This document shows, in pieces, positions 11,813 to 24,797 of a DNA stretch of 64,000 nucleotides. The position numbers and the translations under genes were made by a program. Numbering within the stretch: the first letter of the stretch is position 1; the number at the start of each line of letters is the position of its first letter. This stretch comes from Raja brachyura (lineage: Eukaryota), in assembly GCA_963514005.1 (NCBI GenBank), contig OY740801.1:13516001-13580000 (forward strand). The letters run 5' to 3'. The notes under the pieces were generated by a model. The model worked only from the letters and a program-made list of their open reading frames with translations. It made no database searches and was not told the origin of the DNA.

Positions 11813-12490
11813 CTACAATGAAACCAAAACCTTCGGGTTAGAGCAGAGTAAACCATTTCACATTTTTTTTGTAATTAATCAACACTTTAAAAAAAAAAAC
11901 TGGCACAAACGATGACCCTGCTTTGTAAACAACATGCAAAGGAAATAATCTATAGTTCTATAATTTACAGTAACCAAGATCCCAAATTCTAAATATGGTA
12001 GTGAACAATTTATTTTTGCCACTATTATTAGCCAATTTGCGGACAAGATCACAGTCCAACAAAATAAATAATTCTATCATAAGACAACTGCATCTCCTAA
12101 TAAGAGTGACTCTGGCCAGAGTTGACTTCCATGGAAGTCAATTCTTTTCTGGCCACTAAACATAGACAGAACCAAAAGGGTACCAGGTCATAAGAAGATT
12201 CACAATCAACATGGTCCTCACACCAATGCATAAACAGTTCCAAACTGAATGGTGATCAAGAGTAGACAGTCAGCTCATTTTCAACCATATTCGCTGATGG
12301 CAATAACAGTATAACAAAGTTTTTTCCTCCCTGCAGTTCACATACTGTGAGTTGGTTGAAATCTAAAATGGATGCCATTAATATTAATTAACCCTCAAAG
12401 GAGATATTGCTTGGCACTGAATTAAGGGGAGGGTGATACAAAAAACACTTGCATTTTGATTTGTTTTGTAATTTGAAAGAAACACTTTAC

Positions 12491-12601
12491 CAGTTTATGA
12501 AGAGATCCCAATTCCTCGGGTAAGTAGCAAAGTCCTGTTCGGTTCAGTTTCAGCCATCGCAAACTGGTCATACACTTAACATGTTCAGGAAAATAACCAC
12601 C
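12491..12601 (-). CDS. FLII: FLII exon 2
   Basis: [37 protein letters not shown]; AG/GT boundaries. Confidence 0.95.
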
Positions 12602-13286
12602 CTTTGCAAAAGAAAAAAACATTCAATTTTGCTTTGGAAACATGCCCTGGTCATGCATCTACATATTTCAAGCAGACGTCAATGTGGTTAAAATAACAAC
12701 ATCAACATAACCTCCACACAAGTTATACAATTATGAAAAATTCAAAGCTGTATTCAAAATCTCAAAGGCAGTGAGTGACCAAGAGTACAACACCTCAGTG
12801 ACATCATTTGAAAGCCAAGCATCAATTTTCACAGGTCCGCCCGCATTAACTAGTTCTACCATATCATCTTGTTCAATCTTCCACTGTCTCTAAATTGCAA
12901 GACTGCTCGTCTGGCATGAGACTTACAATTTAAACACTCAATGAGAAGTATGTTGAAGTTCCAACATAAGTGTAATCTTGGATATCTTAGCCATTACATC
13001 ACCACTAAAGTGTACATATTATGTATACTTGCCACTCTCCATAAAGCAGCTCACACATTCTCCCTCTCCAAACAAAAAAAAGTTATAATGCAAGATATAA
13101 AGCACCCACATTTTTGCACAGCTAGATCCCATTAACAATGATGTAAATTTCCAAAAATGGACACAGCGCTCAAATAACTCAGCGACTCAGGCAGCAACCC
13201 CTGGGGAACATGGATAGATGTTGTTTCAGGCCGGAACCCTTCTTCTGACTGATCACGGTTCTGACTAGAAACAGCACAACCATGAT

Positions 13287-13600
13287 TTTAGTTTACTTTA
13301 CAGATCCAGGGCGAACACAGGCCCTTCGGCCCACCGGGTCTGCGCCGATCAGCAATCCCCGCATATTAACACTATCCTACACCCACTAGGGGCAATGTTT
13401 ACATTTACCAAGCCAATTAACCTACAATCCTAAACGTCTTTGGAGTGTGGAAGGAAACCGAAGATCTCAGGGAAAACCCACGCAGGTCAGGGGGAGAACG
13501 TACAAACTCCATACACACAGCACCCGTAGTCAGGATCAAACCCGGGTGTCCGGCGCTGCATTCGCTGTAATGCAGCAACTATACCGCTGCGCCACCATGA
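13287..13600 (-). mobile_element. tRNA-derived V-domain SINE
   Basis: Minus strand: tggtggcgcagcggta A-box, gggtttgatcc B-box, V-domain, gggcctgtgttcgccctg tail. Confidence 0.82.
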
Positions 13601-13648
13601 TCTCCAGGAATGCTGCCGGACCCACTCAGTTACTCCAGCACTAGGTAA

Positions 13649-13885
13649 AGGGTCTGTCCCACTTTCACGACCTAATTCGCAACCTCTGGCGAGTTTGCCC
13701 TTGACTCATACTCGCAGCATGGTCATCATGAGGTCATAGGAAGTCGTAGATAGATCGTAGCAGGCTGTGATGCTAGTCGTAGGTACTCGTGGCATCAAGA
13801 AGTTCGGGCGTTTTTTCGAGCCTGATGAAAAATGTCCACGAGTAAAAAGGGTCATGAATTAGGTCGTGAGAGTTGGACAGGCCCT
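13649..13885. mobile_element. PIF/Harbinger-type MITE
   Basis: ~30-bp TIRs agggtctgtcccactttcacgacctaattc / gaattaggtcgtgagagttggacaggccct; TAA TSD on both sides. Confidence 0.75.
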
Positions 13886-14084
13886 TAATGTGGGGGGGTG
13901 GGGGGGACACGACGACGACAGAACATGTCCTTAATAATTTCTATTGATTCACTATACAATGCATCATCACTTGGTTTGGCAACTTCTCTGCCAAGATCTC
14001 AGGAAATGGCAGAGTTATGGTTGCAGCTCAGTCTATCAAACAAACCACCCAACCGTGCACTTGACACTGGATAGGTAAAGCAGC

Positions 14085-14149
14085 GGCCCCATTGCAGAAG
14101 TGTCCACGTCGCGGGGCTGGAAACTGGAAGTACCCTGAGCTAATTCTGC
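14085..14149 (+). ncRNA. HDV/CPEB3-like self-cleaving ribozyme fold
   Basis: GGCCCC AUU GCAGAA GUG UCCACGU CGC GGGGCU GG ...(P4)... GCUAA UUCUGC: 6-bp P1 with G1.U, 6-bp P2, P3, CC/GG P1.1, putative catalytic C at 14140. Confidence 0.72.
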
Positions 14150-14267
14150 TACCACCATCATGTGTTGCGACAAGTGATGGCTTCCACTGATTGTCGTCGG
14201 AAGCTTGCGTCCTTTTTAGGATGATGACAGCGTATTCAACATTTGTAACAAGATGGACACGAAAAGA
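14085..14267 (+). mobile_element. ~183-bp non-autonomous retroposon headed by an HDV-like ribozyme, nested in a Rex1-like remnant
   Basis: TSD aggtaaagcag (14073-14083) / aggtcaagcag (14268-14278), one mismatch; tail ...gacacgaaaagaag. Confidence 0.7.
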
Positions 14268-15739
14268 AGGTCAAGCAGGCAACATAATTAAGGACCACTC
14301 ATTCCCCAGTCATTCCCTCTTCTCTTTCCCATCTGGCAGAAGCTACTAACAGATTGAAAGCACATCATGAACAGTTTATTCCCCTTTTCAAACTACTTGA
14401 ACAGACTTCTCATAAGACAAGGGTGCAGACCCAATTTCACAACCTACTTCATTGCAGCCCTGGCACTTTCTCTCGAGCAGTAACACTATAACACTGTAAC
14501 ACTATAATCTGCACTCTGGAGTCTCTTTGCACCTCCTGGATTGTACCCATGTATGGGATGATTTGACTGGATAGCACACAAATGAAGTTGTCCCACTGTG
14601 CCTCGGTACATGTGGCAATAATAAACTAATACAATGCAAATACGACTTTAATTTTTGACCAACGAGTTAATCTAATGGAGACATGCAGGGCACTTCAGAC
14701 CCTTAGAATGTACTCCCCATGTCCTATACAGCGACAGTACAGAAGTGCCACCAGCTGGAGCAGCTCAATCTCTGCATCTTGGAGCCTGAGCAACAGCTGT
14801 CACATTCTATCCACAGGGCTGGATTTTGTGAACTGCATATTTTGGAATGGGATCATCCACCATCATTGCACAGGTAGAGATGGACTGAACTAATCTAATG
14901 GTACCATGCGGGAATACATATCCCATGACATGTACAACCACGGCAGATAAAGTGACACTCAAAACAAAAAGCTGGCGGGTATTTCAGGAGTCCTCATTCC
15001 CCAAGCAACATTCGGTTTCTAATTCTGATGGGGGGGGGGGGGGGGGGGGGGAACAAACGCTCTCTTGCCTATCACTGCCAGGGCCAGGAGCAGACCACCA
15101 CGGGTAGCTCGACTGCACAGGGAAAGAGAAAACAAAGCCAAGAGTGACAGCAATAAGATATTCTATAGTTAGCAGAGCTTCAGCAGTCACAGACCTCAAT
15201 CCAGGAAATGTGTTGCTTCCTTGGTGGCAAAGTGAAGAGCATCACTAAGTCCTGGCAGAATCTTTTGGACAAGGAGAGTGAACAGCCAAAGACTGTGGCC
15301 CATATTGCTACCAATGACATAGGCGGAAATAAGAATGCAGGCATATTTTATTGAATTAGGTGATAGATTAAGAAAAAGAGCTTCAAACTGTGGTAATCTC
15401 AAATTGACTTCCATGACCAATGAATACAAACTTAGGAGGATAACACTGACGAATGGCTAGCAGGAAATTTGTGCAAAAGAAAGGGCTTTAAATTCATACA
15501 GTCCTTCGCTTTGCTAAAGAAAATGCATTGAAATGGGCCCTTCAGCCCAACTCATCAATGCTGCCCAAAGCATCTTCTTGAGCTGGTCTCACGTGCCTGT
15601 AATTGGCCCGTTGCCCCTAAAACTTTTCCTATCCATGTACCTTGTAAACATTGTAACTGTACCCACCTCTACTACTTTCTCTGACAACTCGTTCCCCATC
15701 CACCCCACCCTCTGTGTGGAAATTGTGCTATTTAGCCCT

Positions 15740-16480
15740 CTTTAAATCTTTCCCCTCTCATCTTAAACGTATGACTCCAGTTTAAACTCCCCTACCCTGG
15801 GGAAAAAGACTATAACAATCCATTTTATCTATGCCTCTCACGATCTGATAAACCTCTATATAGGTCACTCCTCAACCTCCTTCATTCCAATGTGAATAGA
15901 CCCAGTTTCTACTTAAAACTCAAGCCTCATCGATATCCTATTGAAACTTTTCTGCAACCTATTTTGCTTTATCTCATCCCTCCCATAGTATGGTGACCAG
16001 AACTACCCACAATACTCCAAGTGGTCTCCACAACATCTTATACTGTTGCAACATCAAGTCCCAACTCTTGTCCTCATGTCCCAATATGAAGGCAAGCATT
16101 TATGCAGCTTCTTCACCATCTAATTTACCTGCATCACCATTTTCAGGAAACCATGTACTTGTACCCCTTGGTCTCTCTGTTCTACCGCATTTCCCAGGGC
16201 CTTTTCATTTACTGTGTATGTCCAGCCCTGGATTAACTTAGTGAAATTTCAACTGCCATTCCTTATCCCACTTTCCAATTGATCCAGATCCTGTTGTATC
16301 TTTAGACAATCTTCATCACTGTCCGCCACACTATCAAATTTGATGTTTTCTGTAAACTTACTAATTATACCATCTACAATTCTTACTCAAATCATTAATA
16401 TATATCATTATCCATGATGATGATACGATGCAGGATTTTGTCAAAAGCCTTGCTAAAGTTCATGTAATCCACACCTACCC
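15740..16480 (-). mobile_element. Decayed CR1 fragment
   Basis: Degenerate similarity to the CR1 RT and 3' region seen at 42157-43300. Confidence 0.6.
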
Positions 16481-17545
16481 TGCACTTACATCTCAAACAC
16501 AGCTGTTCAGCCTTGCAACAGCCATTCTCACAATGGCCCACTCCAAAATGGCTGTTCCATCAGGTCCTTTCGAATTCTCTCGCGGGGGACCTACTAGCAA
16601 GGCCTTTGGGGACAAAAAGGCATGGGAAACGTTGTGGGGAAGATAGGACCTATCAATGCCAGACAGGCTGTGACTTAACAGAACTAGGACTAACCTCCTT
16701 GCAAGCAGATTTGGGGAGGGTTTAATTGAGCTTGGCAGAGGAAGTTGAAAAGATACAAAAGAGAGAAAACAGACTTGGGAATAGAAGCTAAAAAAGTGAG
16801 GTAGTTTAGAAGGAAGAACAAATAAAGGCTGGAAGTTAAAAGGAGTCTATTGTGAAGCATGTAGATAGCCGAAGCACTGATAGACATATTATAGCTCTGC
16901 CTGAAACATGTTATAAAGTTGTGCAGTTATTTAACATTCTTGTTTAAAGGCTTTTCAAACAAAATAAGGAGGGGCTAAGTGAGAGGAAGAGACTGAAAGA
17001 AGAAGGTGGTGAGGCAATCTTGGTTGAAGAAACAATTAATAAGATCAAAAAATGGAAAGTTTACTATGTTATTTTGCACATTTTCAACTAACATGGTTCC
17101 CTTCTACATCATTTGTCTTCCATGATGTTATGATTCTCCATTCATCAATAATCCTAGAAAATGTTGGTGTCTCAAAGTTTACATTTGCCATAGAATAAAC
17201 AATAGATTAAACCAAGCATTAAGTCGGTATTATAATTGAATTTCTATTTTAATAAGAAAAGTTTCATAACTTTCTAAGGAAAGTAGTCATAAATGAAGCT
17301 GGTAATGACATCAAGATCAGGAATTCTGCATTAACTGTCAACACAAAGCACATAATATCAATACATTCGGTAGAATAGAAATAATACGACTATGTAGAAC
17401 TATACAAACACCCCACAGGCCTAGGCTGCCTGCCTCTTAGTCAGATTGCTGCTCAATAATAGTCATAATAATACCACACAACTGACCAGGCAATAGCTCA
17501 TTTCTACACAGAACATTAATATTCAGAGTGGTGTAACTGACTTAC

Positions 17546-17608
17546 TTTAAAATCATTTCCACTTAGATCCACACCCCTGATGAAGGGCAAGACTCCGGTG
17601 GCAGCCAT
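17546..17608 (-). CDS. FLII: FLII exon 1
   Basis: ATG at 17608; MAATGVLPFIRGVDLSGNDFK; donor gtaagt. Confidence 0.95.
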
Positions 17609-17609
17609 G

Positions 17610-17830
17610 GCCGCTGTGACAGTCCACCTCAACCTACCGCCATTAACCCCGCCCTTCCTTCGCATCTCATTGGCCAGCACCTGTCACCTGGGCGGGCACT
17701 GACCGATCTCGATCAGTCTCATTGGCCGAAACTCCTATCAATCACAAGCCAATCATCAGGTTTGGTTGAGCTGCGTCTCACCCATTTCCGGATATGAGCG
17801 CATGCGCCGTCCCGCCCCCCTCTCCCGTTG
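17610..17830 (-). promoter_or_regulatory. FLII CpG-rich promoter and 5' UTR
   Basis: Several GC boxes (ccccgccc, gggcggg), CCAAT boxes in both orientations, ETS-like ttccgg 17786-17791, NRF1-like palindrome gcgcatgcgc 17798-17807. Confidence 0.7.
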
Positions 17831-18109
17831 ATCGACAGCCCCAGGACCTGAAGTTGGGCAATCGAAGTGTGCAGGAAGTACAGGATGGAAATTGGTGGTA
17901 GTTAAAACGCCGGAGAAACTCAGCGGGTGAGGCAGCATCTCTGGAGCGAAGGAAATAGGTGACGGTTCGGGTTGAGTAGTGAAGTTGATGAAGTCCATGA
18001 GTGCTGGAGGTAGCACCGATGCAGTTGTCAATGTAACATAGAGTTTGGGTCTAGGGCCAGTGAATGCCTGGAACATGGATTGTTCAATGTAAGAAGGGTC
18101 TCGACCCAA

Positions 18110-18390
18110 AGCGCGGGTCGGTACGGTGGCGCAGCGCCGGAGACCCAGGTTCGATCCTGACTACGGGCGGTTATCTGCACGGGGTTTGTACGTTCTGCCC
18201 ATGTGTTTCCACCGAGATCTTCGGTTTCCTCCCACACTCCAAAGATGTTCAGGTTTGTAGGTTAATTGGCTTGGTATGAATGTAAAATTGTCTCTAGTGT
18301 GTGTAGGATGGTGTTAGTGTGCAGGGATCGCTGGTCAGTGCAGACTCGGTGGGCCAAAGGGCCTGTTTCCACGCTGTATCTCTAAACTAA
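18110..18390 (+). mobile_element. tRNA-derived V-domain SINE inserted in a hammerhead-bearing element
   Basis: ggtggcgcagc, ggttcgatcc, V-domain, gggcctgtttccacgctgtatctctaaactaa. Confidence 0.82.
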
Positions 18391-19539
18391 ACGTCACCCA
18401 TTCCTTATCTCCAGAGATGCTGCGTGTCCCACTGAGTTACTCCAGCTTTTTGTGTTTATCTTGGGTAATCGAACTGTCAGTCATGGATTGTGGGCGGGCT
18501 CGTCTGCCAATAGATAAAAGACCAGAGTGCATTAAGTGAGTTCCAATGATAGCCACAAAATACTGGAGTAACTGAGAGGTCAACAAAGTTTGGGCAGACC
18601 AAAGAACCTGGAAGAAATTTTGCAGTTCTAGTTTTGTATAATATTTTTACTCTGAATAAAGTTTATTATGATTAGGAAATGGGTCAGGCAGCATCTCTAT
18701 AGAAAAGGAATAGGTAATGTTTCAGGTCAAGACCCTTCCCGATCTGAGATGTCACCTATTCCTTCTCTCCAGAAATGCTGCCTGACCCGCTGAGTAACTA
18801 CAGCATTTTGTGTCTATCTTCTGCAGTTCCTTCGTACACAAACTGAGATCCGATGTGTAGGCATAAGGAGCCATTGATGATGGATGGCACCTTAAGCAAG
18901 CTACAAGGTGCTGGATGATCTCGGCAGGTCAAGCAACATTTGTGGAGGGATTTGGACTGATGATGTTTTGGGGCGGGGCCCTTTGTCCATTTCCCCCGAT
19001 AGATGTTGCCTGACCCACTGAGTTCCTCCAGCAGTTTGAGCTCGGATGTGTAGTGTATTGACATTCAAGTGGTAGAGATGCAAACGCTCTGTATGACCGC
19101 TTGGAAACTAGGAGGGATAGGATTAATTGCGGAATGATTGGCCATTGTTAAGCTATGAATCTGTCTGGATTCCTATTACTGGTACATCTACACCTTTAAT
19201 TTATTTCTGTTTGAATTTTTTTTCATAGAAACTTGTTGAGAATCTGATGAAATCTGCTTGGGTAGATATTTCACAATGCCAAAGGACGGCTTCTTGGACA
19301 AGCCAGGTTTGCAGCCTGTGAGAAAATAATTCAATAGACTGAGGCAACCTTATGCTGAATATAGAGATAAGTGTATCCTTCCACATAATAGCAAGCATAA
19401 AAGCCAATCATGTCCGAAAGGATCCATCACAAAGTTTCCAAAGGTAATTGTCTTGGACTTTGTTATTCACCAATGAATTGACAATATTCATAGATATTGA
19501 CAAATATCTACCATTAATTACTCCCTTCTCTTTGCAGAA

Positions 19540-20700
19540 TACAACATTGGCTGGGGGATAATGTGTTGAAAACAATTGTGTAAATCATTGGCCTTAAGTT
19601 GTGTGGATTTTCAGAAAGCCTTTAAGGTGCAACACAAAAAGTAATTAATAAGAAATTTAGATTACATGGGACTGGGGGCAATATAGATGCATTAATAGAC
19701 AGATGGGAATAAATGGATCATCTGTCTTAATTTAAGTGCCCCATGGATTACTGCTTGAGCGTTTATTCATAATGTACTCAATCTTTGTAATCTAAATCAA
19801 TGATTGCAATGGGGGAATAAATAGGTGTACTTGTGGTATAAAGCTTGGTGAAAAGATGCAGAGATTTCAAATTTACACACAGATACACAAAATACACAGA
19901 AACACTAAAGTGGACGGTATTGTAGATAGTGAAGATGGTTGTCAAAAATTGCAGCAGGATCTTGATTGGTTGGGTAAGTGGGCAGAGCAATAGTTGATGG
20001 AATTTAATACAGAGAAATGTTGGGTGTTGCATTTTGGAAAGTCTAACTCGGGCAGGACCTGCAGTGAATGGGAAGGCTCTGGGTAGTGTTGTAGAGCATA
20101 GTGATCTAGGAGCACAGATGCATAGTTCCTTGAAAGTAGCATCACATGTAGATAGGGTGGTCAAAAAGGCTTTCAGCATATTGGTCGCCTTCCGTCAAAG
20201 TATTAAGTATAGAAGTATGTTATAGTTATACAAGAAATTGATTAGGCCACATTAATAGACAATAGGTGCAGGAGTTGGCCCTTTGAGCCAGCACCGCCAT
20301 TCAATGTGGTCATGGCTGATCATCCACATTCCCGTTCCTGCCTTCTCTCCATATCCATTAACTCCACTATCCCTAAGAGCTCTATCTATCTCTCTTGAAA
20401 GCATCCAGAGAACCAGCCTCTGAGGCAGAGAATTCCACACACTCACAACTCTGTGTGAAAAAATGTTTCTTCATCTAAGTTCGAAATGGCTTACCACAAT
20501 GAAGAGTGTTGTGGTTGATTTTGGGCACCATGTTATAGGAAAGATAGGGAGGTGTTGAGCAGGCTAGGACTATTCTTTGGAGTGCAAGATGATGAGGGGT
20601 GATTTTATAGAGGTTACAAAATCATGAGAAGAACAGATTGGGTAAATGCAAAGAGGTAAAGTATCAGTCGTAATCTGATTGAATGGTGGAACAAGTCCAA
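19540..20700 (+). mobile_element. Decayed CR1 ORF2 fragments with a nested inverted CR1 3' end (~20255-20480)
   Basis: Frameshifted similarity to the 42157-43300 RT (QQDLD, FNTEKC, VKKAF motifs). Confidence 0.75.
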
Positions 20701-21094
20701 TGCTCTACTCCTTTCACTCCACAGCAGATCTTTTTGCATACCTTCGGTAGGTGGTAGGGAAAAGGAGAACTCCCAGATTACAACATTACAAAAAATATTT
20801 ATTGTGACTATATTTTTTTCTCTAACACCATAATGGATATTTTTGCATCTACTGGATTGTAACGTCAAAAAACATTAATGTTAAAAATTTCCTTAAGCAA
20901 TCCTGGGGCCCATTTTGCACAACCTGACATTCTCTGAATGAGCAATTAAATTGGAGAAATTCAACTGTCTTCATTATAGTCAAAGATCCATGTATTTCAC
21001 ATATATTGCAATTTTGGTCTCATATATTGAGACCAATTCATGCCAAGGTGCACGGTGAGCACTGTTATATAAATTGTGCTTCCTTTACCAGGAT

Positions 21095-21360
21095 TCCAGG
21101 ACAAGGTCATAGCCTCAGAATTAAAGGATGGTACTTCAGGAAGGCAAAGGGGAGGAATTTCTTTAGTCAGAGGGTGGTGAACCTGTGGAATTTGCCACAG
21201 AAGACTGTGAATAGATATTTTTGAGGCAGAGATAGATAAATTCTTGATTAGTACGGGTGTCAGGGGTTATGGTGAGAAGGCAGGATAATGGGGTTAGGAG
21301 GGAGAGATAGATCAGCCATGATTGAATGACGGAGTAGACTTGATGGCGAATGGCCTATTT
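21095..21360 (+). mobile_element. CR1 3' end
   Basis: GHSLRIKG...FFSQRVVNLWN and gagaaggcagg...atcagccatgattgaatg. Confidence 0.75.
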
Positions 21361-23277
21361 CAAGTCAAGAGAGTTTATTATCATGTGTCCCAGAGAGGAC
21401 AATGAAATTCTTGATTGCTGCAGCACAACAGAATATTATAAGCAAAAATACAGAACAGTTAAGCTCATTATACACATAAATAAGCAGATAAAGTGCAATT
21501 ATTCTTCTATCACCTATGACCTTCTGATACCCGAGTAATTTAAGAATAGCAATTATTAAATGTTACCTTAATGATGTCTGAAGGGATTAGGGTTGTCAAG
21601 CAATAAGAAATTATGATTGTATAATCTTAATTTTACCCTTAATAGAACACCAATATTCAGATTTTCAGTACATAATTTATTGCTTTTGAGTTACGGATAA
21701 TCTTGAAAGATCAAAAGGAAAACATTTTGCCTTTTTAATGTTTAATGATGTCACAAAGCATTCATGTTCTAGTTTCAGCAGAAAATCTGATTTATTTCAT
21801 TGGCCAATTTACTCACTTCATTCAGTGGAGTTTAGGACCACAGGAAATCATTATAGTTGATCAACTGTTTTCACTAATCACAATGTTGAAACCAGCTGGG
21901 GAGCTGAATAACTCCCAGCTGTCTCTTTGTACAGTTGGGAAATCTGATTCCATCACCCAAATTACAATTCTATATCATTCCCTGCTTAAAATGTCCCACG
22001 TTGGGGTGGAATCCCTGTGTTAATCATACAAGAGCCAGTCAACATATCGGTACATCTTGAGAGGAAAACAAATCACACTTTTAGTTAAACCATGAGAACA
22101 GAACTACACTGAAAAAGCAAATATTAATTTATTATTTGAAATAAAATCACTTAACAGTAGCTTCTAATGTTAAAATAAAATGAATTTTAATTCATCCATG
22201 TCCTGGTGGACTCTCGGGTTTACTCAATTCTATCTCTTCAATTACTCTGCTCTCTATTATAACTTCAGTTCTATGGTTCAATGCAACCTCCCAATGTGTT
22301 GGTGATAGTTACGTTCACACTGCTAAATGCAGCCTGATGGTACACTGTGACACATTCCCACCAGTGTTACGGCCTAATATTATAGTGCAACCCTGCATCT
22401 ACCATTACTGTATCCAGGGAATTCTGTGCCTATAAATACTGTATCAGTGAAATAGTGCTGTAATCATTAGTGCACTACCCCAGTATTATATAGGATAAAC
22501 ACAAGCCACAATAAAATGTAAAAGGTGAATGGCTGTTCTCTTCCCCATAGAAGACTATGAGAAAATGAGGGAAATAAAGCATCTGCATTTCTACTGCACT
22601 TCACTGAAAGCCATTTGACAATGCAGCCATTGAACGATTCCTTATCCATGGTACATCACACAACATCCACAAGAGATAATACAGTAACCTAATATATCTC
22701 TCCAAAAATAGAAACTTAATTCCCTGCTGGACATTTACAAGTGATTTATCCAAAAATCAAATGCAAACATGCTGAACTGGAACCTGAACGTATGATAACA
22801 CAATGACATAATAAAAGTTACCTTCGCATTTAAAGGTGCCAAAATCAAATCCTGAGCTTTTAACTAACTTTAAACATTCGGACTAAAACAAATTGATGTT
22901 CTTACAACTCTTCAACTCCTCAGATGCTAAGATGTACCATCTCCAGAAAAGCTTGATTTGATAGAAGCAATACCATTCCATGAATAAAATCCACCCATGG
23001 AGGACTAAGCAACCGCTCCTGGAGGCAGGTTAAGTAATGGATTCCATTCTGCTTCTCACTGTAACCCGGCACCCAACACACCCAGGCGACCCACTCTCCC
23101 TCATCGAACAATGAACTCACTGAACTCTATATTAAAGATCACATAATGCAGTACTCCTTATGAAGGATCTGGTTAGTATCAGTGGGAAAGATCAAGAGAA
23201 CTGAGATGAAGATGACAGTTTTCTCTGCAGGCACAGTACCCAGTTTATGACAAAATGCAGGTGGGAAGGAGAGAGGG

Positions 23278-23402
23278 TCACCGGTTTTGGGGGCATTTTG
23301 TCCTGGTGTGCCCCGGCTGATGACACAGCCCGCAGGAGCGTGGCTTCTTTGCTGTGGGTCCATTCTGGAAAGAATTTCTATCCCGCCGATTATCTATTGA
23401 TC
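23278..23402 (-). CDS. TOP3A: TOP3A exon 19 (terminal)
   Basis: tttcag|GA; SIDNRRDRNSFQNGPTAKKPRSCGLCHQPGHTRTKCPQNR*; stop TGA 23278-23280; not present in the supplied ORF track. Confidence 0.93.
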
Positions 23403-23465
23403 CTGAAATAGAAGGAATACAATTATATCATTTGATTTGAACATCCCAAGTATTCCTTTATCAAT

Positions 23466-23601
23466 CTTCTTCTTTCGTGTGGCATGCACAGCCTAAAGTT
23501 GTAGGACAACTTGTTCTATTGGATCTTCTGTATGTACACGTCGAGTTGATTGCATTAGTCGAAACAGGGCGGACCACGTGAAGGTTGCAATCTTCCACCC
23601 C
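23466..23601 (-). mobile_element. 136-bp non-autonomous retroposon headed by the HDV-like ribozyme, (GAA)n tail
   Basis: Perfect 11-bp TSD cctttatcaat at 23455-23465 and 23602-23612; 3' end ...gccacacgaaagaagaag. Confidence 0.8.
23548..23601 (-). ncRNA. HDV/CPEB3-like self-cleaving ribozyme fold with minimal P4
   Basis: GGGGUGG AA GAUUGCA ACC UUCACGU GGU CCGCCCU G UUUCGA CUAA UGCAAUC: 7-bp P1 with G1.U wobble, perfect 7-bp P2, 3-bp P3, L3 UUCACGU, J4/2 CUAA with putative catalytic C at 23558. Confidence 0.8.
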
Positions 23602-24248
23602 CCTTTATCAATGAATGACCTAAAATTAAGTACAGGCTCAAATACCTATTCAGCTGTTTTTAGTATTTAACTGGTGGGGGCCATTCACAGCTCATTGCAC
23701 CTCAGTCAGATCTGCAACCTGGCATTACAGCTTCCCACAGTAGCTTTGGCCTAGCACAATGAACTATGTAAACATCCTAAGGTAGCCTATGAATGTATTT
23801 AGTAGACAATTCACAATCTCCATTTCTATAAACAGTAAACCATATTCTGAAAAACACATGCTATCCATAAACATTGATCAAGTGGCTCATAGCAACTCAT
23901 GGCACTGCATTGAAAACCATGGTCCCAGGTGGCATTTTAAAAGCGTTCATTTGCCATTGAGTATTGCACAAAAGTGACTGGTGGTGGTGAATAATAGTAG
24001 AGCCGCTGCCACACAACGGCAGAGACCCAAGTTCAATTCTGGCCTTGGCTAGTATCTGTTTGCACATTCTCTCTGTGATTGTGTGAATTTCCTCCATGTG
24101 CTCCAGTTTTATCTCAAAGATGTGAAGGGAGGTAGGTTGCTTGGTAAATGGCTACTGTGAACAGCTCCTGGTGTGTAGGGAAATGGTAGAATTTAGGGGT
24201 AATAAGAATGTAGGATGAATTTTAAAAAATGGAATTAATGTAAGATTG

Positions 24249-24617
24249 CAGACAGTCCTCAGTTACAATAGGGTTCCTTCCATTCCCAAAAAATGCTCGT
24301 AACCCAAACCGTTTGCAAGTCAGAAATGAAAAAGTGTGTGGGAAAAGCAGTTGTCAGCTGGTCTTAGGGACTCAATGACTGATCGATGCTGCTGAGCGCT
24401 CTAGCTCAGCTCAGCTCGACGCAGCTCCAATAATTGTGGCTCAGAGGGAGCGGGCTGGGGAAGAAAGAAAGTGGAAATGCCCCATTTCCACCCGGCACAA
24501 GATGTCTGTGGCCCCGCAACAGCAAATTCAGCACCGTTCATTCTCTTGCTCCCTCGAATGTTGTTTGTATGCATGGGGTGCCCACAAGTCTAGTGTTCGT
24601 AACCCAGGAATAACCTG
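24249..24617. mobile_element. Tc1/mariner (Tigger-like) MITE remnant
   Basis: Degenerate TIRs cagacagtcctcagttac / gtaacccaggaataacctg. Confidence 0.45.
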
Positions 24618-24797
24618 GCTAGCTCGTGTTTTTCTGAATATGGTTAACAGTTTTTGAAAAAGAGGTTGGTAATTGTCTACGAAATACTTTCCTACAGTGC
24701 CTTAGGATTTGTTCGTTTAGTTCATTAGTAAATCGGTGGTTAATGATCAATACAGTTTTTGTGCTGTACTTTTCTGTGACTCTATTGCGATGCTTAC

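What the first reader, a model, noticed from the sequence alone, without database searches (positions are those of the whole stretch)
23455..23612. HDV/CPEB3-like self-cleaving ribozyme, sense-oriented in the last intron of TOP3A, heading a 136-bp retroposon
Seen: on the minus (TOP3A-sense) strand, 23601->23548 reads GGGGUGG-AA-GAUUGCA-ACC-UUCACGU-GGU-CCGCCCU-G-UUUCGA-CUAA-UGCAAUC. This satisfies the HDV nested double pseudoknot: 7-bp P1 opening with a G.U wobble, perfect 7-bp P2, 3-bp P3, a 7-nt L3, G for P1.1 and CUAA in J4/2. P4 is reduced to about 6 nt. G1 is exactly the first base inside a perfect 11-bp TSD, and the insert ends in a (GAA)n tail. Established: L3 UUCACGU and the CCCUGU after P1 match the mammalian CPEB3 intronic ribozyme as I recall it, and HDV-like ribozymes process the 5' ends of R2, RTE and Ingi/L1Tc RNAs. 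Inference: a promoter-less, ribozyme-released SINE-like element, probably Ingi/Vingi- or RTE-mobilised. If active it would cut TOP3A pre-mRNA about 200 nt before the final 3' splice site, which could affect inclusion of the CCHC-encoding last exon and would launch new copies from host transcription.
Basis: partly seen in the sequence, partly recalled or inferred. Interest (0 to 1): 0.9.

Follow-up and report, generated by a model that had tools for sequence, protein, structure and literature searches.

The report
Ribozyme-headed Vingi mini-retroposon in TOP3A
A 136-base jumping element in the last intron of TOP3A begins with a very small hepatitis-delta-type self-cutting RNA fold inherited from a Vingi-type LINE; it is one of thousands of copies, so the fold probably serves the element's own copying, and nothing here shows that it regulates the gene.

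Summary
Observation confirmed. Minus-strand 23601-23548 fits the HDV nested double pseudoknot (only descriptor hit in the window; 0 in 25 resampled windows), though Rfam scores it far below threshold. It heads a 136-nt insert with an 11-bp TSD, in sense in the last TOP3A intron, 199 nt before the 3' splice site. The genome holds 1,320 exact copies of the 54-mer, and most sampled copies start at G1. I found the parent: a 3.1-kb single-ORF Vingi-type LINE (endonuclease plus RT, no RNase H) sharing nt 1-73 and 98-136, whose start codon lies inside the ribozyme. Seven Vingi-type families here keep the fold with different helix sequences, which is strong comparative support; cleavage itself is untested. 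The element is a ribozyme-headed, internally deleted LINE like NARTc, RIME and R2 SIDEs. Apparently new: the Vingi clade, a vertebrate host, a nearly P4-less form. The TOP3A-regulation idea is unsupported: copies decay without visible selection, this copy has no exact daughters, its G(-1) and flank predict slow cleavage, and a relative's probable RNA contig splices the intron normally. Side lead: two sister families resemble the Rfam CPEB3 model.

The parts
23602..23612 (-). Upstream copy of the 11-bp target-site duplication; supplies G at -1
23548..23601 (-). Minimal HDV-like ribozyme fold, nt 1-54; predicted cut between 23602 and 23601
   Evidence: 1,320 exact genomic copies
23595..23601 (-). 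P1 5' strand (pairs with 23572-23566)
23586..23592 (-). P2 5' strand (pairs with 23554-23548)
23573..23585 (-). P3 stem and 7-nt L3 loop; C22 (23580) pairs with G37 (23565) as the single P1.1 pair
23559..23564 (-). P4 remnant: one U-A pair around UUCG
23555..23558 (-). J4/2; predicted catalytic C at 23558
   Evidence: inferred by homology
23553..23555 (-). ATG at the J4/2-P2 junction, in frame with the endonuclease ORF in the parent LINE
23529..23601 (-). Part derived from the 5' end of the Vingi-type LINE 'family G' (nt 1-73; 66 of 73 identical to each of two LINE copies)
23505..23528 (-). 24-nt middle not matching the LINE ends: partial duplication plus a fold-back that pairs with the 3' part as a 7-bp hairpin
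   Evidence: origin inferred
23466..23504 (-). Part derived from the LINE 3' end (nt 98-136): last codons, stop codon at 23495-23493, short 3' UTR and (GAA)n tail
23455..23465 (-). Downstream copy of the TSD, 52 nt before the intron end
23403..24797 (-). Last intron of TOP3A (1,395 nt, GT..AG), which hosts the insert in sense
23278..23402 (-). Coding part of the TOP3A last exon, with the CCHC knuckle

Best explanation
The insert is one fixed copy of a bipartite, non-autonomous retroposon made by internal deletion of a Vingi-type LINE. Shown: it consists of the LINE's first 73 and last 39 nt plus a 24-nt rearranged middle; copies carry TSDs and (GAA)n tails and mostly start at G1; the 5' fold is kept by compensatory change across LINE families. 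Inferred: source copies are transcribed by read-through from host genes (or from an internal promoter), the ribozyme cuts before G1 with C44 as acid-base catalyst and leaves a 5'-OH unit-length RNA, and the LINE protein binds its ends and inserts it by target-primed reverse transcription. Selection acts on the fold only in source elements. The TOP3A copy is an incidental insertion that probably cleaves slowly and is tolerated because the 3' splice site is made seconds later.
For: Partner LINE: L147, L196, L197, L199, L201 share both ends; L196 spans about 3.1 kb and is collinear with a 1,019-aa endonuclease+RT protein with no RNase H match (990 of 1,019 residues covered). Copies: 1,320 exact 54-mers, 2,999 exact 3' 25-mers, 3,071 exact 30-mers of an older subfamily. 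5' ends: 15 of 17 independent 3'-anchored copies and 36 of 40 older copies align from within the first 4 nt; TSDs end within 1 nt of G1 in 10 of 13 and 20 of 28; loose contig ends pile up at 23601 in all 4 runs laid (489, 472, 30, 207). Covariation over 7 families: P1 41 of 42 cells paired against 147 of 252 for non-cognate strands; P2 6 of 6 with a C-N-A linker in 5 of 7; P1.1 C-G in six and U-A in one. Within the lineage the differences fall at tolerant places: U.G versus U-A in P1, J1/2, and the base after the catalytic C. No selection on copies: ribozyme part 31/806 and 125/1973 differences against 33/1347 and 141/3071 for the rest.
Against: No cleavage was measured. Rfam score is far below threshold. 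One P1.1 pair and almost no P4 may mean weak activity. All LINE-G copies seen are decayed (84-91% identical to each other) and older than the young subfamily, one copy of which sits inside a LINE-G copy (L201), and the young tail differs from the LINE tail at 2 positions, so the direct mobiliser was not found intact. In families A and C the J4/2-P2 end does not parse cleanly. Strands were partly chosen by best pairing, and P3 by the search pattern.
Confidence: 0.76

Rival explanations
1. The TOP3A copy has been co-opted, like the CPEB3 ribozyme, to cut the pre-mRNA and tune splicing of the last exon or mRNA yield.
For: Sense orientation; all 54 nt match the family majority while 3-4 changes lie in the other 82 nt; the insertion appears shared by three other organisms 0.8-3.6% diverged (contigs enter the element by 25-29 nt, under the tool's 31-letter bridging rule); precedent in CPEB3 (PMC10274809 passages).
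Against: The 0/54 versus 4/82 contrast is not significant (Fisher p 0.15), and 1,320 copies are equally intact. G(-1) is the slowest base in the genomic HDV ribozyme, over 25-fold below U (PMC1874588 abstract). The upstream flank pairs with nt 38-40 and 45-49 and lowers predicted P1 from 0.97 to 0.52-0.64. Only 145 nt, about 2 s of elongation, separate the ribozyme from the 3' splice site, against 9,931 nt and a 2-3 min half-life in CPEB3; slow intronic ribozymes had no effect on splicing (as cited in PMC10274809). A probable RNA contig of a close relative joins 24797 to 23401 (that organism's insertion state was not seen).
Confidence: 0.08
2. The 5' end is set by an internal promoter and the pseudoknot is kept for non-catalytic jobs: exonuclease protection, binding of the LINE protein, or cap-independent translation from the AUG inside it.
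For: The L1Tc/NARTc first 77 nt are also a promoter; R2 ribozyme folds protect the 5' end and bind protein; the ORF's ATG lies at the J4/2-P2 junction in families G, A and B; families A and C have atypical J4/2.
Against: The C-N-A linker, L3 U..G and G1 are kept in five families with unrelated helix sequences, as catalysis would require; element starts coincide with the predicted cut site; the functions are not exclusive.
Confidence: 0.12
3. The young subfamily was mobilised by a different or unsampled LINE (a younger LINE-G subfamily or another Vingi family), not by the LINE-G copies seen.
For: Young copies are about 3% diverged and nest inside LINE-G copies that are 84-91% identical to each other; the young tail differs from the LINE-G tail; searches score only the top candidates.
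Against: The older subfamily has the LINE-G tail; none of the other six families gave a comparable match to either end in the loci examined; copy ages overlap.
Confidence: 0.15

Closest known systems
NARTc / RIME / SIDER (non-autonomous derivatives of L1Tc and ingi, trypanosomatids)
   Same: Short element made of a LINE's 5' and 3' ends, headed by an HDV-like ribozyme that cuts at +1; NARTc shares the first 77 and last 30 nt with L1Tc (PMC3383444 passages; PMC4035085 abstract).
   Different: Vertebrate host, Vingi-type parent without RNase H, 136 nt against 263 nt, P4 nearly absent, single P1.1 pair; activity shown there, untested here.
Vingi-1_EE non-autonomous derivatives and other bipartite LINEs (RTE, Ingi, Vingi, R2)
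   Same: Internal-deletion origin from a Vingi-type LINE (PMC5786205 passages).
   Different: [quoted passage not shown]
R2 SIDEs of Drosophila
   Same: 5' ribozyme joined to a LINE 3' end, spread by TPRT (PMC3414825 abstract).
   Different: SIDEs are rare and confined to 28S rDNA; this family is dispersed in thousands of copies.
Mammalian CPEB3 intronic ribozyme (Rfam RF00622)
   Same: Sense-intronic; same L3, single C22-G37 P1.1 pair with U21/U38, same numbering to nt 38.
   Different: CPEB3 is single-copy, has a full P4 and lies about 10 kb from the next exon; this copy is a recent repeat and is not listed by the CPEB3 model, whereas sister families D and E are, below threshold.
Minimal P4-less HDV-like and theta ribozymes (gut phages, metagenomes)
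   Same: P4 reduced to a short loop; such forms cleave in vitro (10.1101/2023.06.13.544163, first part of main text and passages).
   Different: Those lie beside phage tRNAs, and that study reported no hits in the human, mouse and protist genomes it searched; this one heads a vertebrate retroposon.

Membership tests
HDV-like ribozymes | Nested double pseudoknot P1, P2, P3, P1.1 with 7-bp P1, 3-bp P3, 7-nt L3 | tested here: met
   only one P1.1 pair, as in CPEB3
HDV-like ribozymes | Catalytic C at the start of J4/2 followed by N-A, G1, U20 and G25 | tested here: met
   kept in 5 of 7 families cleanly
HDV-like ribozymes | Covariation of helices among homologues | tested here: met
   P1 41/42 against 147/252; selection of strands partly by pairing
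HDV-like ribozymes | Score above an Rfam gathering threshold (RF00094, RF00622, RF02682) | tested here: not met
   16 bits against 44, E 7.3; so not a member of these curated families, whose models include a P4
HDV-like ribozymes | Mg2+- and C-dependent self-cleavage 5' of G1 | not testable with these tools
   needs in vitro transcription
Bipartite non-autonomous LINE | 5' and 3' ends shared with one autonomous LINE, coding middle deleted | tested here: met
   nt 1-73 and 98-136
Bipartite non-autonomous LINE | TPRT hallmarks: variable TSD, simple-repeat tail, occasional 5' truncation | tested here: met
   TSDs mostly 8-15 bp; 2 of 17 and 4 of 40 copies start later than nt 4
Vingi clade (parent LINE) | Single ORF with APE endonuclease and RT, no RNase H (PMC13708176 passage) | tested here: met
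   copies are decayed, architecture read via the 61-64% identical relative P0001
Vingi clade (parent LINE) | Phylogenetic placement with named Vingi elements, apart from Ingi | tested here: inconclusive
   32-34% identity to an Anolis 939-aa protein that I recall as Vingi-1_Acar (the label is recalled), against 25% for a Nimb/I-like LINE; no labelled references were at hand, no tree built
Classical SINE (tRNA, 7SL, 5S head) | Head derived from a Pol III small RNA | tested here: not met
   no tRNA, no such Rfam match; head is the LINE 5' end
Domesticated intronic ribozyme (CPEB3 type) | Purifying selection on the orthologous copy | tested here: inconclusive
   p 0.15 within the copy; orthologous ribozyme sequences could not be read

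The most novel reading that the evidence does not exclude
Vingi-type retroposons are a source of vertebrate intronic HDV-like ribozymes, the mammalian CPEB3 ribozyme among them: family E and D heads match the Rfam CPEB3 model in sequence as well as fold (28.4 bits, E 0.0011; 24.1 bits, E 0.029; both under the 35-bit threshold) and the human genome holds a Vingi trace. This genome, with on the order of ten thousand or more ribozyme-headed copies, would then be seeding such ribozymes, with the TOP3A copy as an active one that measurably tunes last-intron splicing. I put the Vingi origin of CPEB3 alone at about 0.3 and a measurable TOP3A role at about 0.08; the figure given is for a form in which some intronic copies of this family act on host splicing and CPEB3 shares the origin.
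Probability: 0.12. Interest if true: 0.85.

Novelty: new variant of a known kind. Interest (0 to 1): 0.57.

Why it matters
It extends ribozyme-defined 5' ends to Vingi-type LINEs and their non-autonomous offspring in a vertebrate, with one of the smallest HDV-like folds (54 nt) present in over a thousand exact copies, each in a different flank. That is a natural library for asking whether intronic self-cleaving RNAs are tolerated, purged in sense orientation, or co-opted, and where the CPEB3 ribozyme came from. It also delimits candidate cis-ends (73 + 39 nt) and a start codon embedded in the ribozyme for a clade now being developed for gene insertion. The TOP3A location itself is probably incidental.

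Tried and rejected
Chance fold: rejected. tRNA-headed SINE: rejected. Nimb/I-like LINE (top 30 PF14529 loci) as partner: no match to the element. Vingi families A-F as direct parent: own heads and, where seen, own tails. TOP3A copy as a source of daughters: its three-change haplotype occurs once in the genome; 6 other copies share one change only. Expression: no RNA holder listed; contigs cannot show a coverage drop or a 5' end. Empty-site allele: none among the 15 joints shown of 32, so not excluded. MAFFT alignment A1 had two wrongly placed rows and misaligned P4; not used. Pseudoknot-blind folding cannot form P1 and P2 together and was used only for flank competition. A first copy-number estimate of about 5,800 disagreed with 1 perfect 54-mer in 15 sampled copies and was replaced by the overlap estimate. 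The 20-codon frame from the LINE ATG to the LINE stop in the young subfamily is lost in the older one (2 nt longer) and is treated as chance. Bacterial promoter scan is not informative for this host. Ruminski 2011 and the original Vingi paper were not held. Earlier scan notes: none for this sequence or genome.

Full report
1. The observation. From G1 = 23601 on the minus strand: P1 1-7/30-36 with G1.U36 and an internal U5.G32 wobble, a 2-nt J1/2, a 7-bp Watson-Crick P2, a 3-bp P3, L3 UUCACGU, one P1.1 pair (C22-G37), a one-pair UUCG remnant of P4, and J4/2 CUAA with C44 at 23558. The 11-bp TSD is perfect. A general HDV descriptor (J1/2 1-25 nt, P4 region 3-70 nt) gave 1 hit in the 64-kb window, this one, and 0 in 25 Markov-resampled windows. 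Rfam placed the F. prausnitzii HDV model on exactly 23548-23601, but at 16 bits against 44, E 7.3, so curated models do not accept it. The host is TOP3A (GRF fingers in the penultimate exon). The last intron is 24797-23403; G1 lies 199 nt and the downstream TSD 52 nt before its end.

2. A large repeat family. A DNA search of the own genome gave 1,751 candidates, 40 scored, 93-97% identical apart from the query. Exact patterns: 1,320 copies of the 54-mer, 2,999 of a 3' 25-mer, 3,071 of a 30-mer marking an older subfamily (reversed controls 0). By hand from the listings, 12 of 34 exact 5' hits in the first 110 Mb of C1 have an exact 3' hit at the right distance, which implies roughly 8,500 young copies; the older subfamily would be 12,000-22,000. 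These are rough. Of 30 loci anchored on the 3' end I kept 17 (dropping 12 segmental duplicates and 1 duplicate); 15 align from within the first 4 nt, and TSDs were found in 13, ending exactly at G1 in 9 and within 1 nt in 10. Of 40 older copies, 36 start within 4 nt, with TSDs in 28 (12 exact, 20 within 1 nt). In all 4 public runs laid, loose contig ends pile up at 23601 (489, 472, 30, 207).

3. The parent LINE. A PF14529 search led through 20 fetched stretches to one Vingi-type copy, whose endonuclease found 154 matches falling into seven families, A-G. Family G shares nt 1-73 (66 of 73 identical in each of two copies) and nt 98-136 of the short element. L196 spans about 3.1 kb and covers 990 of 1,019 residues of a relative with endonuclease and RT domains and no RNase H match, the architecture given for Vingi (PMC13708176 passages). 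An Anolis protein among the 75 homologues is, by my recall only, Vingi-1_Acar. The LINE's ORF starts at the ATG at nt 47-49, on the J4/2-P2 junction, in family G and likewise in A and B; the short element also keeps the LINE's stop codon. Family G has spawned at least two further bipartite derivatives (4 clear copies and 1 copy among 30 LINE-type 3' ends). All G copies seen are decayed (84-91% identical), and a young short copy sits inside one (L201).

4. Comparative support for the fold. All seven families begin with an HDV-like head. Over family majorities (7, 5, 4, 1, 2, 3 and 6 copies), P1 positions 2-7 pair in 41 of 42 cells against 147 of 252 for strands of different families; P2 pairs 6 of 6 with a C-N-A linker in B, D, E, F and G; P1.1 is C-G in six and U-A in B; the stretch between P1 and the catalytic C runs from 7 nt (G) to about 50 nt. 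Caveats: P3 was imposed by the pattern, P1 and P2 strands were partly picked by best pairing, and A and C do not parse cleanly at J4/2. Within the G lineage the differences are a U-A to U.G change in P1, the first J1/2 base, and the base after the catalytic C, which is G in 19 of 37 older copies.

5. How it most likely works. Shown: bipartite origin, TPRT hallmarks, precise start at G1, conserved fold. Inferred from established HDV chemistry and from R2, RTE, baggins and L1Tc (PMC6765202 passages): read-through transcripts are cut before G1, and the unit-length RNA is taken up by the LINE protein and reinserted. An internal promoter is not excluded (PMC3383444 passages). T is enriched at -1 of new insertions (29 of 55 junctions against 29% background, p 3e-4), the base that gives fastest cleavage in genomic HDV (PMC1874588 abstract); this may equally reflect endonuclease preference or untemplated addition.

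6. The TOP3A copy. Copies decay without visible selection on the ribozyme (3.8% against 2.4%, and 6.3% against 4.6%; the anchors lower the second figures). This copy's intact 54-mer is unremarkable (p 0.15). Its three-change haplotype is unique in the genome, so no exact daughters exist. It has G at -1, and its flank is predicted to pair with nt 38-40 and 45-49. The 3' splice site follows 145 nt after the ribozyme, about 2 s at 3.5-4.1 kb/min, whereas CPEB3, with the same single P1.1 pair, has a 2-3 min half-life and 9,931 nt to the next exon, and slow intronic ribozymes were reported not to affect splicing (PMC10274809 passages). Cleavage during the minutes before splicing completes remains possible. 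A 4,424-nt contig from a probable RNA run of a relative about 1% diverged joins 24797 to 23401 and a second GT-AG junction; that organism's insertion state was not covered. Contigs of organisms B and C enter both junctions by 25-29 nt and those of E (3-3.6% diverged) the 5' junction by 25 nt; this is under the tool's 31-letter rule but suggests an old, shared insertion.

7. Comparison and novelty. It works like NARTc, RIME, SIDER and R2 SIDE (abstracts of PMC4035085 and PMC3414825; passages) and meets the definition of a bipartite non-autonomous LINE (PMC5786205 passages). That paper names six ribozyme-bearing clades without Vingi. Searches for Vingi with ribozyme (6 papers; passages read in two), Vingi alone (listing), HDV-like ribozyme with shark (1, listing), non-autonomous vertebrate terms (listing) and skate/Chondrichthyes terms (0) showed no description of this family. 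Two key papers could not be read, no supplements were opened, and Repbase, Dfam and patents were not searchable, so priority is uncertain. P4-less forms were described from metagenomes and phages (10.1101/2023.06.13.544163, first part of main text). Other papers seen: PMC7761336, PMC4836649, PMC5753468, PMC10919898 (passages) and PMC4908430 (one reference line).

8. Verdict. Real, well supported by comparison, and a new variant of a known kind; catalysis untested; host regulation unsupported. The most interesting lead lies beside the finding: heads of families E and D match the Rfam CPEB3 model in P2 and core sequence (below threshold). Interest 0.57.

Noticed in passing
L023:1165-1261 (+), L142:510-614 (+), L145:4400-4497 (-): Heads of Vingi-type families E and D match the Rfam CPEB3 model (28.4, 24.1, 22 bits; E 0.0011, 0.029, 0.15; threshold 35), sharing P2 sequence as well as fold: a lead that the CPEB3 ribozyme descends from a Vingi-type element.
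   Followed up: partly
L217, L224, L227, L229, L232, L233: 6 of 30 LINE-G 3' ends carry an inverted piece from the 5' region of the element (within nt 8-312 of the reference copy) joined to a 3' fragment across a deletion of over 2 kb; TSDs clear in L227, L232, L233. Resembles twin priming near the RNA's 5' end and may explain how bipartite elements arise.
   Followed up: partly
L214, L215, L219, L234 and L222: Two further independent short derivatives of LINE-G with the same ribozyme head and LINE tail but different middles.
   Followed up: partly
P0002 against L191, L196, L199, L201: A predicted protein of the eel Synaphobranchus kaupii is 62-72% identical to decayed family G copies, near the within-family translated range (72-85%): possible horizontal transfer; DNA not compared.
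   Followed up: partly
L112, L131, L164 and window 23553-23555: In families A, B and G the ORF's ATG sits at the J4/2-P2 junction of the ribozyme, so folding and translation start overlap.
   Followed up: partly
55 distinct 5' junctions in the loci: T at -1 in 29 and A in 5 of 55, against 29% and 28% background.
   Followed up: partly
L143, L144, L153, L155 (family C); L112 (family A): HDV-like P1/P3/L3 but J4/2-P2 does not parse cleanly; possibly variant or inactive ribozymes.
   Followed up: no
L031-L060, L110: An abundant young Nimb/I-like LINE with a gag-like ORF1; no match to the element.
   Followed up: no
G000:C1:14.57-14.95 Mb (L073-L085): One insertion multiplied 13 times by segmental duplication.
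   Followed up: no
window 22937-22994: The probable RNA contig of organism D skips 58 nt in the TOP3A 3' UTR with non-canonical ends: species deletion or unusual splice.
   Followed up: no
L258, L259, L027:~405-470: A 3'-truncated, P1-deleted copy of the older subfamily embedded in another repeat before a C/T-rich tract, amplified with it.
   Followed up: no
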